Sequence record: PP993145.1
DNA: 64,000 nt
Origin: Escherichia phage phiP4
Reading direction: 5' to 3' (one strand)
This document shows, in pieces, positions 21,038 to 30,463 of this stretch. Within the stretch, counting starts at the first letter, position 1, and every line of letters starts with the position of its first letter. The position numbers were made by a program, and so were the translations under genes. A model generated the notes under the pieces. The model had not been told where the DNA came from and did not search any database. It saw nothing but the letters and a program-made list of their open reading frames with translations.

Positions 21038-21113
21038 TGGAGCGGCTAGAGGGAATCGAACCCTACTCAGCGAGGCTTGGAAGGCCTGCGACACAACCCG
21101 TGTGCTTAACCGC
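21038..21113 (-). tRNA. tRNA-Gly (anticodon TCC)
   Basis: Hand fold: acceptor GCGGTTA/TAGCCGC, anticodon loop CTTCCAA, CCA. Confidence 0.6.
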
Positions 21114-21121
21114 TTATTATT

Positions 21122-21740: not shown

Positions 21741-21817
21741 TGGGGTGGCTAGTGGAATTCGAATCCACATAGGCCTGATTCACAATCAGGATCATTAACC
21801 AATTATGATATAGCCAC
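21741..21817 (-). tRNA. tRNA-His (anticodon GTG)
   Basis: Hand fold: perfect acceptor GTGGCTA/TAGCCAC, anticodon loop TTGTGAA, CCA. Confidence 0.7.
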
Positions 21818-22186
21818 AATTGAAAACTCGCAGGGTTAGCGAAACCTTCCTCAATTAGCATGTTCTAGAATACTAATCAAGTTATCTCCTATTGCACGCA
21901 GCTCAAGACGAGTACGAATTTTCAATTGTGGCGGCTCTCAGAAACTCTTCTACTCTAGCTTTAGCAGCTTACTCCCGAACGCATGTCGGGGAAGTCTTAC
22001 CAAGAGCATCAAATAGCACCGTTACACTTTGAGCCATAGATGTATCAAGAAGCAGAAGGATTTGAACCTTCACGAGATAGACCAGTTATCTCAGCCGCTT
22101 TATGAGGTATGTTGCAGGGAGTGGATGTTCCCTATAAACCTTTTAGGCAGCCCCGTCTACCGATTCCGGCATACTTCAAGAATTTT

Positions 22187-22360
22187 TTATAAACCAGCAG
22201 AAGCCTCATTTAAAGCATCAACAATAGCTTCACGTTGGGTCATTCCATACCCGGTGGAATCTAGGTGTGGCAAATAAGCCATCCATCCCTTATCTGTTTC
22301 ATGAAGACATGCTTTAAATTTTTTACCATCCTTCATTGTTACAGTAACTGTTTTGCTCAT
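22187..22360 (-). CDS. small protein (57 aa) with HicB-like antitoxin fold signature
   Basis: Hand-translated MSKTVTVTMKDGKKFKACLHETDKGWMAYLPHLDSTGYGMTQREAIVDALNEASAGL; AAGGAA-type RBS. Confidence 0.4.
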   Translation of the reverse strand: MSKTVTVTMKDGKKFKACLHETDKGWMAYLPHLDSTGYGMTQREAIVDALNEASAGL

Positions 22361-23214: not shown

Positions 23215-23452
23215 AAATTCTTTAGTTTACTAAGGCTATTAGCTCGGCGTAACTACAGCACCTTCGCTTCGAGCGGAAGGAACTGCGTCATCTCGCAAAC
23301 CCAATACACTATTCAGTTGCCGCTGAATCTAGTGGACCAATCTAGAACTTCTCCCGAATCAGGGGGATCGTGCTTTTTGGCAGCCAGTCCTAGGTCGAGC
23401 TAATACCTTAGTGAACTATGATGAGGATTTCTCCTCATCAATTTATATAAAT

Positions 23453-23929: not shown

Positions 23930-24138
23930 TAATTTTTGTTAACTCACTTTATAAGATATATTATACAGAGAATTAAGCAGAATAGCAAATGAATTTTTAA
24001 TAAATTTACTTATTGTGTAGGCCACCTAGAGGCTATGAACCCCACGGCTGACAAAGAAGTTTGCGAGACTTCTCTTAAATGCCAGAATAGACCCGCCGAT
24101 CTATCGGAACCTACATAATAAGTAAACTTTATAGTGTC

Positions 24139-27867: not shown

Positions 27868-27945
27868 TGGTGGCTCCCCGAGGATTCGAACCTACGTACC
27901 TTCCGGTTATGAGCCGGGTGCTCATACCATATGAGCTTGAGAACC
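27868..27945 (-). tRNA. tRNA with anticodon CAT (third CAT tRNA; Met or Ile2), imperfect T-stem
   Basis: Hand fold: acceptor GGTTCTC/GGGAGCC, D-arm GCTC/GAGC, anticodon loop CTCATAA, CCA. Confidence 0.5.
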
Positions 27946-30268: not shown

Positions 30269-30463
30269 ATGTGTTGCAGAAAATCTGTTTCGTGCTGCCC
30301 AATGCCTGTAACACGTTGTTGCTCTCCAGCAATGTTTACGCAAATACCGGCGTTCAATCCGTTTGCCTTTAAACCTATTCTTATCCTGCCCCCTAGAGTA
30401 GATTTTCAGTCAAGATTGGCCTCCCGTATGGGTGGTTGCTGTACACCGAGAGTGTGGTTCTAA
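30269..30463 (+). CDS. Cys-rich small protein (64 aa)
   Basis: AGGAGG RBS upstream; multiple CC pairs. Confidence 0.45.
   Translation: MCCRKSVSCCPMPVTRCCSPAMFTQIPAFNPFAFKPILILPPRVDFQSRLASRMGGCCTPRVWF

What the first reader, a model, noticed from the sequence alone, without database searches (positions are those of the whole stretch)
21812..21932. 13-bp long-range inverted repeat next to tRNA-His
CCACAATTGAAAA at about 21812 and TTTTCAATTGTGG at about 21920 could form a 120-nt stem-loop in the RNA downstream of tRNA-His, in a segment with no convincing ORF.
Basis: seen in the sequence. Interest (0 to 1): 0.35.

Follow-up and report, generated by a model that had tools for sequence, protein, structure and literature searches.

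The report
Processing stem of phage T5 RNAIII
The inverted repeat is real and forms the conserved 20-base-pair stem of "RNAIII", a small stable RNA of unknown function already annotated in phage T5. It lies just before (not after) the histidine tRNA and most likely marks where the long tRNA precursor is cut.

Summary
The 13-nt inverted repeat exists (21814-21826 / 21919-21931) and extends to a 19-20 bp helix with G·U pairs. The window is a T5-like phage tRNA cluster transcribed from the minus strand, so the hairpin lies upstream of tRNA-His, and its 3' arm contains the first four or five tRNA nucleotides. The T5 reference record already annotates this interval as rnaIII, a 106-nt "stable RNA with unknown functions", between rnaI (107 nt, ending GCCA) and tRNA-His. 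The repeat is RNAIII's terminal stem.

Comparison adds detail. Across three lineages of Demerecviridae the helix is always present and always starts at RNAI's CCA. It shows strong covariation: 98.4% of cells paired, 12 of 19 pairs changed on both sides, 0/500 shuffles. The 14-125 nt interior is swapped among at least seven mostly unrelated forms, one of them a bare hairpin.

The annotated RNAIII ends lie opposite each other inside the helix with a 2-nt 3' overhang. The base pairs at +1 and +3 on both sides are A:U or U:A in every form, apart from one mismatch at +1 in one phage. My best reading is a host RNase III-type processing stem that separates RNAI from tRNA-His, with RNAIII as the excised spacer. 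The enzyme is inferred, not shown. The feature is already known and of modest interest.

The parts
21913..21932 (-). 5' arm of the long-range helix in the transcript (G-CCACAAUUGAAAAUUCGUA). Its first three paired nucleotides, CCA at 21931-21929, are the 3' end of the RNAI orthologue.
   Evidence: The register was checked pair by pair.
21813..21832 (-). 3' arm of the helix (UGCGAGUUUUCAAUUGUGG-C). Its last nucleotides, 21817-21813, are G+1 to C+5 of tRNA-His, and 21818 is U-1.
21819..21924 (-). Orthologue of T5 rnaIII (106-nt 'stable RNA with unknown functions'). As annotated, it folds with a 12-bp terminal stem and a 2-nt 3' overhang.
   Evidence: T5 annotation, sequence mapping, the same annotation in DT57C, and the fold.
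21833..21912 (-). Interior of RNAIII, form A. It folds into up to three small hairpins on the stem; two are in the centroid fold. It is replaced by mostly unrelated sequence in other T5-like phages.
21925..21928 (-). Four nucleotides (CAAU) between the RNAI CCA end and the annotated RNAIII 5' end. They lie inside the helix and would have to be trimmed from RNAI.
21929..22035 (-). Orthologue of T5 rnaI (107 nt). It is a rod-like hairpin closed by GGCUC/GAGCC and followed by G-CCA, a tRNA-like end.
   Evidence: It is conserved in Sugarlandvirus and Hongcheonvirus.
21741..21818 (-). tRNA-His (GUG), 21741-21817, plus U-1 at 21818. The T5 record includes this extra nucleotide in the tRNA.
   Evidence: It folds as a cloverleaf once freed from the stem.
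22036..22180 (-). Orthologue of T5 rna1 ('tRNA-like stable RNA'). This is upstream context and is not part of the helix.
   Evidence: (tRNA model, 26.5 bits, below the gathering score).

Best explanation
The inverted repeat is the basal double-stranded helix of the T5-type stable RNA III gene. This gene sits inside a polycistronic precursor transcribed from the minus strand: tRNA-Ser, a small ORF, RNA1, RNAI, RNAIII, tRNA-His.

Shown here:
- The helix is 19-20 bp long.
- It starts exactly at the CCA end of RNAI and ends in the first nucleotides of tRNA-His.
- It is maintained by selection at the RNA level.
- Its interior is dispensable and interchangeable.

Inferred:
- The helix forms as soon as it is transcribed and holds the tRNA-His 5' strand before the tRNA's own 3' strand is made.
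- A double-strand-specific endonuclease, most likely host RNase III, then cuts both strands with a 2-nt stagger.
- The cut releases RNAIII as a closed, nuclease-resistant by-product.
- RNAI is left with a 4-nt tail, which exonucleases trim back to CCA.
- tRNA-His is left with a 1-nt leader (U-1) and can then fold.

On this reading RNAIII is an excised spacer hairpin, not an RNA with a function of its own.
For: Identity:
- The T5 record annotates rna1, rnaI, rnaIII and tRNA-His in exactly this interval.
- The sequences map base for base onto the window.
- The window hairpin differs from T5's at one position.
- DT57C carries the same annotation.

Conservation:
- 43 loci held tRNA-His together with an RNAI 3' end; 26 of them came from an IMG/VR scan anchored only inside tRNA-His. 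All 43 have the helix in the same register.
- On 13 distinct arm pairs from Markadamsvirinae, Sugarlandvirus and Hongcheonvirus, 98.4% of cells are paired and 12 of 19 pairs changed on both sides.
- 0 of 500 shuffles reach any of the five measures. Slid controls give 34-46% paired (smaller set).
- G·U pairs make the helix valid only in the minus-strand RNA.

The interior is not what is conserved:
- I found forms A, B, C, D, E, F and G, with hairpins of 40-154 nt.
- Forms A, B, C, D and E occur in 282, 55, 65, 15 and 2 phage records.
- They are unrelated at the 9-mer level except F with G and one word shared by C and G.
- Form E is a bare hairpin.

The precursor fold disrupts the tRNA-His acceptor stem in favour of the long helix.

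RNase III signature:
- The annotated RNAIII ends are opposite each other in the helix with a 2-nt 3' overhang.
- The helix is about two turns long.
- Pairs at +1 and +3 on both sides of the cut (bp 8, 10, 5, 3) are A:U or U:A in all 13 arm sets, apart from one mismatch at bp 8 in 118970_sal2.
- These are the positions where G:C or C:G blocks E. coli RNase III (PMC1540722).
- The annotated ends of T5 RNAIV also lie inside a 20-bp helix.
- RNase III is reported to take part in phage T4 tRNA maturation (PMC4810235).
Against: - No RNA-level data were available to me. The T5 end coordinates come from a GenBank annotation whose experimental basis is not stated in the record.
- The canonical distal-box UG/UA doublet lies at +7/+8 from the annotated cut, not at +9/+10. 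The +2 pair is G:C rather than the preferred A:U.
- Below the cut there are only 7-8 bp, so coaxial stacking on the RNAI stem would be needed.
- RNAIV's annotated stagger is 1 nt, not 2.
- Form E has only about 10 bp above the cut.
- Within each form the interior is 90-100% conserved, and forms B, F and G share a small 3'-proximal hairpin motif. Some interior function is therefore not excluded.
- Part of the covariation comes from whole-cassette replacement rather than point substitutions.
Confidence: 0.6

Rival explanations
1. The helix is a structural element that does not involve RNase III. It acts as an insulator or an exonuclease barrier. RNase P makes the RNAIII 3' end and the tRNA-His 5' end in one cut. 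The RNAIII 5' end comes from RNase E or another single-strand nuclease, followed by trimming up to the stem.
For: RNAIII and tRNA-His are annotated as contiguous, as expected from a single RNase P-type cut. RNAI and RNA2H have tRNA-like ends (a stem followed by GCCA or GCC), which point to RNase P and exonuclease processing elsewhere in the cluster. The fit to RNase III sequence preferences is imperfect.
Against: The tRNA-His 5' strand is sequestered in the helix, which should block RNase P until the helix is opened. The annotated RNAIII 5' end lies inside the continuous helix, at bp 8 counted from RNAI's CCA, not at its edge. The constant length of about 20 bp and the symmetric near-invariance of A:U pairs around the cut have no explanation under this model.
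Confidence: 0.2
2. RNAIII is a functional trans-acting RNA. The conserved stem is a scaffold that displays a variable, exchangeable module, for example a decoy or inhibitor aimed at host or prophage defence systems, in keeping with the arms-race character of T5 tRNA clusters.
For: There are discrete, internally conserved forms with no intermediates, each at a substantial frequency. They are exchanged between genera: form F occurs both in Klebsiella Sugarlandvirus phages and in Salmonella phage PRF-SP12, with the arms refitted to each tRNA-His. The T5 annotation says RNAIII accumulates as a stable RNA.
Against: Phage S124 has no interior at all. The constrained part is the stem, not the interior. 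There is no Rfam family and no similarity to E. coli genomes. Nothing links any form to a host range or a defence system.
Confidence: 0.15
3. It is a DNA-level element: terminal inverted repeats of a small mobile element, a recombination or homing site, or a cruciform.
For: The region is mosaic. RNAI forms and RNAIII forms reassort independently at conserved junctions, and homing endonuclease genes lie in the T5 tRNA cluster. The perfect arms of form E could arise by template switching.
Against: The arms consist of the RNAI CCA end and the tRNA-His 5' end, so they are not separable repeats. There is no target-site duplication. G·U pairs would be C·A mismatches in the other strand or in DNA. 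The arms differ in sequence yet remain complementary in Sugarlandvirus and Hongcheonvirus. No form is the reverse complement of another.
Confidence: 0.03

Closest known systems
Phage T5 rnaIII (GenBank AY543070 / NC_005859, misc_RNA 30284-30389; also annotated in DT57C, NC_027356)
   Same: It has the same position between rnaI and tRNA-His and the same length. The sequence differs at one position in the 118-nt hairpin. The inverted repeat is its terminal stem.
   Different: Nothing material differs; the window carries the orthologue. The records give no structure, no processing route and no function.
E. coli RNase III processing signals, such as the phage T7 R1.1 intercistronic hairpin and the rRNA operon processing stems
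   Same: A helix of about two turns lies in a polycistronic precursor. The annotated ends imply cuts on both strands with a 2-nt 3' overhang. No G:C or C:G pair occurs at the two antideterminant positions next to the cut.
   Different: In rRNA operons the stem encloses the useful RNA. Here it encloses a dispensable spacer, and the useful RNAs (RNAI and tRNA-His) lie outside and contribute their own termini to the helix. The distal-box doublet is 2 bp out of register. Cleavage by RNase III has not been shown.
Phage T4 tRNA cluster and its stable RNAs (species 1 and 2)
   Same: Small stable RNAs of unknown function are co-transcribed with phage tRNAs. RNase III is reported to be involved in T4 tRNA maturation (PMC4810235). 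From my own knowledge, T4 species 1 RNA is an RNase III substrate (Paddock et al. 1976); I did not check this here.
   Different: No sequence relationship was tested or expected. The coupling of a CCA end to the 5' end of the next tRNA in one helix is not something I know from T4.
T5 RNAIV orthologue (window 24002-24129, minus strand)
   Same: It has a 20-bp long-range stem, and the annotated ends lie inside the helix on both strands.
   Different: Its interior is conserved among relatives rather than swapped. The annotated stagger is 1 nt, at an A·C mismatch.

Membership tests
T5 rnaIII stable RNA gene | Located between rnaI and tRNA-His in the tRNA cluster of a T5-like phage | tested here: met
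   The window region is 92.6-99% identical to T5-like phages. The T5 annotation maps base for base onto the window.
T5 rnaIII stable RNA gene | Sequence identity to T5 rnaIII | tested here: met
   The window's 118-nt hairpin and T5's (L027, L059) differ at one position.
T5 rnaIII stable RNA gene | Accumulates as a discrete stable RNA of about 106 nt in infected cells | not testable with these tools
   I have only the annotation note 'stable RNA with unknown functions'. I could not find the primary papers in the library.
E. coli RNase III substrate | Double helix of about two turns (about 20-22 bp) | tested here: met
   19-20 in-register pairs in forms A, B, C, D, F and G, and about 17 in form E. 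The criterion is from PMC1540722.
E. coli RNase III substrate | Both strands cut, leaving 2-nt 3' overhangs | tested here: inconclusive
   The annotated T5 RNAIII ends give exactly this geometry. The experimental basis of those ends is unknown to me.
E. coli RNase III substrate | No G:C or C:G pair at proximal-box positions 2 and 4 (+3 and +1 from the cut) | tested here: met
   Pairs bp 8 and 10 above the cut and bp 5 and 3 below it are A:U or U:A in all 13 arm sets, apart from one mismatch at bp 8.
E. coli RNase III substrate | Canonical distal box (U·G then U:A) at +9/+10, and G:C at proximal-box position 1 | tested here: not met
   The U·G/U:A doublet is at +7/+8 (bp 14 and 15). Proximal-box position 1 (bp 11) is A:U, G·U or G:C depending on the form. 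My placement of the boxes relies partly on the RNA 6 sequence as I remember it; it agrees with the pair numbers given.
E. coli RNase III substrate | Processing depends on rnc in vivo, or the purified enzyme cleaves the RNA | not testable with these tools
   This needs an experiment.
Any Rfam family | Match to a covariance model | tested here: not met
   No hit over RNAIII form A or forms B, C, D and E, even at E-values up to 1.
Intrinsic terminator | G+C-rich hairpin followed directly by a U-run, at the end of a transcription unit | tested here: not met
   The long helix is followed by GGCUAUAUC, which is tRNA-His. The scan's small hit at 21843-21827 is part of the 3' arm, and the hit count is not above the shuffles. 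tRNA-His must be transcribed through it.
Miniature inverted-repeat mobile element | Terminal inverted repeats flanked by a target-site duplication; multiple copies | tested here: not met
   There is one copy per genome and no duplication at the flanks. The arms are the termini of RNAI and tRNA-His.

The most novel reading that the evidence does not exclude
In T5-like phages the staggered cut in this helix, not RNase P, creates the 5' end of tRNA-His one nucleotide upstream of G+1. The tRNA would then carry a 5'-phosphorylated U-1. This would supply the extra 5' residue that histidyl-tRNA synthetase needs, even though the gene encodes no G-1. It would be a third route to the tRNA-His -1 nucleotide, beside RNase P retaining an encoded G-1 and addition by Thg1.

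For: U-1 is conserved in all loci. The T5 annotators extended only this one tRNA by one 5' nucleotide and made RNAIII end at -2.

Against: in Sugarlandvirus the helix is shifted by 2 nt relative to the tRNA, so a cut at the same helix position would leave a 3-nt leader. The rV5-like phage KNP2 also has U-1 but no such helix.
Probability: 0.08. Interest if true: 0.6.

Novelty: already known. Interest (0 to 1): 0.28.

Why it matters
RNAIII has been carried in the T5 record as a "stable RNA with unknown functions". The comparison here suggests that the stem, not the RNA it encloses, is under selection. The stem ties the CCA end of RNAI to the 5' end of tRNA-His in one helix of RNase III size. This gives a simple, testable account of how this part of the T5 tRNA precursor is taken apart. 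It also explains why closely related phages can carry unrelated "RNAIII" sequences. For annotation, a hairpin of this kind before tRNA-His in Demerecviridae should be labelled as the rnaIII processing hairpin, not as a hypothetical protein, as several records now do. The finding is of specialist interest and changes no general principle.

Tried and rejected
- **Coding reading.** The ORFs over the segment are 20-46 aa with weak starts. The ATG at the RNAI start opens a 22-codon frame in the window and a 52-codon frame in SuperGirl. These cross the conserved arm in different frames, so the region is not coding.
- **Promoter or terminator.** There is no minus-strand promoter-like site between tRNA-Ser and tRNA-His. 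The one terminator-like hit is part of the 3' arm and is not above the shuffles.
- **Rfam.** Nothing was found for any form.
- **Host origin or target.** The four most common interiors have no match in 5,426 E. coli genomes.
- **Cassette inversion between the repeats.** No shared 9-mers were found in reverse complement.
- **Literature.** Seven searches found no paper in the library that discusses T5 RNAI or RNAIII, or T5 tRNA processing. The T4 genome review is not held.
- **CAAUUG palindrome.** It is centred on the annotated cut in T5, which I first read as a sign of a dimeric enzyme. It is not conserved (CAAGUG in DU_PP_V, AAAUUU shifted by 1 bp in Sugarlandvirus), so I do not rely on it.

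Full report
**1. The observation**

The 13-mer CCACAATTGAAAA lies at 21814-21826 on the plus strand. Its reverse complement lies at 21919-21931. These are the only two matches in the 64-kb window, even with one mismatch allowed. Chance expectation is 0.22, and 0 of 100 shuffles gave two matches. The repeat finder extends the arms to 18 nt at 94% complementarity.

**2. Orientation and context**

ARAGORN finds 22 tRNA genes in the window, all on the minus strand. tRNA-His is at 21817..21741. In the transcript the repeat is therefore upstream of tRNA-His, not downstream.

- The 5' arm is 21932..21913.
- The 3' arm is 21832..21813, and its last nucleotides are G+1 to C+5 of the tRNA.

The 119-nt minus-strand hairpin folds at -42.4 kcal/mol (z = -5.9) with a 19-20 bp basal helix containing two G·U pairs. 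The plus-strand RNA folds less well, at -30.2 kcal/mol (z = -3.2), because those G·U pairs become C·A mismatches.

In a 310-nt model precursor the long helix forms at the expense of the tRNA-His acceptor stem. The released tRNA, with U-1, folds as a cloverleaf.

**3. What the segment is**

The region is 92.6-99% identical to T5-like phages of the family Demerecviridae. The T5 reference record AY543070 annotates four features between tRNA-Ser1 and tRNA-His:

| Feature | Length | Note in the record |
|---|---|---|
| rna1 | 144 nt | tRNA-like stable RNA |
| rnaI | 107 nt | stable RNA |
| rnaIII | 106 nt | stable RNA with unknown functions |
| tRNA-His | 78 nt | |

Reading the T5 sequence maps these onto the window as follows:

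| Window (minus strand) | Feature |
|---|---|
| 22035..21929 | RNAI (GGCUC...GAGCC-G-CCA) |
| 21928..21925 | four nucleotides, CAAU |
| 21924..21819 | RNAIII |
| 21818 | U-1 |
| 21817..21741 | tRNA-His |

DT57C carries the same annotation. The window's hairpin differs from T5's at one position. The inverted repeat is thus the terminal stem of the known RNAIII. It extends 7-8 bp beyond the annotated RNAIII ends, into the CCA of RNAI on one side and into GUGG(C) of tRNA-His on the other.

**4. Conservation**

I collected 43 loci that hold tRNA-His together with an RNAI 3' end. Twenty-six of them came from a scan of IMG/VR anchored only inside tRNA-His. The rest came from a scan on the 5' arm and from GenBank records. 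All 43 have the helix in the same ungapped register, and they give 21 distinct hairpins.

The interior is not conserved:

| Form | Hairpin length | Records in the phage collection |
|---|---|---|
| A (window, T5, BF23) | 118 nt | 282 |
| B (KKP_3822) | 133 nt | 55 |
| C (SuperGirl, EPS7, phiR2-01) | 75 nt | 65 |
| D (LVR16A, bastian) | 145 nt | 15 |
| E (S124, a bare hairpin) | 40 nt | 2 |

Each form occurs once per genome in all but two records, and only in T5-like phages. All five forms fold onto the same basal helix, with z-scores from -3.5 to -7.9.

RNAI also has two interior forms. These reassort independently of the RNAIII forms. For example, Sepoy combines the second RNAI form with RNAIII form A, and vB_SenS-3 combines the first RNAI form with RNAIII form C. 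The region is a mosaic of modules joined at conserved junctions.

**5. Deeper relatives**

Klebsiella Sugarlandvirus phages have the same layout: tRNA-Ser, an RNAI homologue ending GGGCC-A-CCA, a long hairpin, tRNA-His, tRNA-Arg.

- The arms there are CCAAAUUUGAGCAUCAUCG and CGAUGGUGCUCAAAUUUGG.
- They again form 19 bp with a U·G at position 14, starting at the CCA of RNAI.
- They end at G+2 of a different tRNA-His.
- KpGranit and phiKp_27 show the series C:G, U·G, U:A at pair 12.

Pectobacterium phage DU_PP_V (Mccorquodalevirinae) has CCACAAGUGAGUACUAUUAA paired with UUGAUAGUAUUCACUUGUGG. That is 20 bp, with a U:A to G:C exchange inside the former CAAUUG core.

Salmonella phage PRF-SP12 carries an interior related to the Sugarlandvirus one, with arms refitted to the T5-type tRNA-His.

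On 13 distinct arm sets:

- 98.4% of cells form standard pairs.
- 12 of 19 pairs have changes on both sides.
- None of 500 shuffles reaches any of the five measures.
- Sliding the partner by 1-3 columns drops pairing to 34-46%.

The smaller set of eight gave the same picture. In both alignments the loop was replaced by GAAA and only the arms were used. In the first alignment I mistyped the unpaired column 25 for two rows, which does not affect the 19 counted pairs.

One caveat applies. Much of the variation in pairs 11-19 arrived with whole-cassette replacement, so it is not all independent point covariation. Even so, every replacement keeps the helix continuous and in register.

**6. How it most likely works**

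The constant features are these:

- a helix of about two turns;
- its anchoring at RNAI's CCA;
- its capture of the tRNA-His 5' strand;
- a set of invariant pairs: bp 1-3, 5 and 10, with bp 8 constant except for one mismatch.

The T5-annotated RNAIII ends put one break between bp 7 and 8 on the 5' strand. They put the other between the partners of bp 6 and 5 on the 3' strand. That is a 2-nt 3' stagger, and RNAIII as annotated folds with exactly a 2-nt 3' overhang.

This is the product geometry of bacterial RNase III. Typical RNase III substrates have two helical turns (PMC1540722). In that paper G:C or C:G is inhibitory at the proximal-box position next to the scissile bond and at the position two further in. 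Here these positions are bp 8 and 10 above the cut and bp 5 and 3 below it. All four are A:U or U:A in all 13 arm sets, apart from one mismatch at bp 8. The two pairs between the cuts (bp 6 and 7) vary.

Several things do not fit:

- The canonical distal-box doublet (U·G, U:A) is at +7/+8 rather than +9/+10.
- The +2 pair is G:C.
- Only 7-8 bp lie below the cut, so stacking on the RNAI stem would be needed. The paper notes that coaxial stacking can serve this purpose.

My placement of the boxes uses the sequence of the 28-nt product RNA as I remember it. It agrees with the pair numbers quoted in the paper's text (U12:G27, C13:G26, position 9:30).

Two further points are supporting:

- The T5 RNAIV ends also lie inside a 20-bp helix, though with a 1-nt stagger.
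- A review states that E. coli RNase III takes part in phage T4 tRNA maturation (PMC4810235).

I therefore commit to an RNase III-type processing stem, with RNAIII as the excised spacer. My confidence is about 0.6. That the repeat is RNAIII's stem and is selected as RNA I hold at above 0.9.

**7. Rivals**

- The helix could work without RNase III, with RNase P making the RNAIII/tRNA-His junction. The sequestered tRNA 5' strand and the 5' end inside the helix argue against this.
- RNAIII could be a functional RNA whose interior is an exchangeable module. The discrete conserved forms and their exchange between genera leave this open. The bare hairpin of S124 argues against a necessary role.
- A DNA-level element is unlikely. 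The G·U asymmetry, the lack of a target duplication, the divergent but complementary arms in other genera, and the absence of inverted cassettes all argue against it.

**8. Comparison with what is known, and novelty**

The feature itself is already known as T5 rnaIII. It is not in Rfam. I found no paper in the library that discusses it.

Three things seem not to be in the records:

- the structure;
- the anchoring of the helix to the CCA of RNAI and the 5' end of tRNA-His across three lineages;
- the interchangeability of the interior.

These refine a known object and do not define a new one. Interest is modest.

**9. The most novel reading not excluded**

The cut in the helix, not RNase P, might set the tRNA-His 5' end at U-1.

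- For: all loci have U, not G, at -1. Of the 15 tRNAs that both the T5 record and ARAGORN call in the 6-kb stretch I compared, only tRNA-His is annotated one nucleotide longer at the 5' end.
- Against: in Sugarlandvirus the helix is shifted by 2 nt relative to the tRNA, so the same helix position would leave a 3-nt leader. KNP2 has U-1 without any such helix.

I put this at under 0.1.

Noticed in passing
window 24002-24129 (minus strand): A second long-range inverted repeat (20 nt, 90% complementary, 88 nt apart) is the stem of the orthologue of T5 RNAIV. Unlike RNAIII, its interior is conserved among relatives, with changes in an internal hairpin that look compensatory. The T5-annotated ends lie inside the helix at an A·C mismatch, with a 1-nt 3' stagger.
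   Followed up: partly
window 23237-23405 (minus strand): A third long-range repeat (15 nt, 139 nt apart) closes the orthologue of T5 RNA2H, just upstream of tRNA-Ala. In T5 the annotated RNA starts at the first pair of the stem and ends with a GCC tail. That is a tRNA-like end rather than a cut inside a helix.
   Followed up: partly
window 22036-22180 (minus strand): The orthologue of T5 RNA1 looks like a class II tRNA. It has a D arm like tRNA-Leu, a long variable arm and a T arm, but about 40 extra structured nucleotides in the anticodon loop. The Rfam tRNA model scores 26.5 bits, below the gathering score. The anticodon-stem pairs co-vary between the window and KKP_3822. A homologue at about 80% identity exists in Klebsiella Sugarlandvirus phages, at a different place in the cluster.
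   Followed up: partly
window 21929-22035 (minus strand); L075 5849-5949; L195 about 457-556: RNAI is conserved across Markadamsvirinae, Sugarlandvirus and Hongcheonvirus. Its ends are conserved (GGCYC...GUAACGGU at the 5' end, GAGUUUC...GRGCC-N-CCA at the 3' end). There are compensatory changes in the closing stem and two alternative interiors. Its function is unknown, and it seems more constrained than RNAIII.
   Followed up: partly
window 21818; L073 about 706; L075 6097: The phage tRNA-His genes have U, not G, at position -1. This holds in all T5-like loci, in the rV5-like phage KNP2 and in Sugarlandvirus. The Sugarlandvirus tRNA-His also appears to have U rather than C at the discriminator position. 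How these tRNAs are recognised by HisRS is unclear.
   Followed up: no
window 21041-21114 and 27871-27945 (minus strand): Rfam finds tRNA-like matches that ARAGORN did not call. The first (30.9 bits to the tRNA-Sec model) sits where T5 has tRNA-Gly(UCC), next to tRNA-Gln. The second scores 40.3 bits to the tRNA model, next to tRNA-Ser(GCU).
   Followed up: no
window 22187-22360 (minus strand): A 57-aa ORF between tRNA-Ser and RNA1 corresponds to T5.063. One related record labels the protein at this position 'HicB family protein'. T5_ev212 and several other relatives lack it, so tRNA-Ser there abuts RNA1 directly.
   Followed up: no
L003 747-905, L060 465-626, L069 300-506 and others: Several GenBank records annotate 'hypothetical protein' genes across RNAI and RNAIII. 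The frames differ between phages, so these are probably miscalls over non-coding RNA genes.
   Followed up: partly
L002, L075, L194, L195 (3' part of the RNAIII interior): Forms B, F and G share a short motif, GG(U/A)CUGAUCA, in a small hairpin just before the 3' arm. Form A has a small hairpin (GGUUUCGCUAACC) at the same place. The interiors may therefore not be wholly unrelated.
   Followed up: partly
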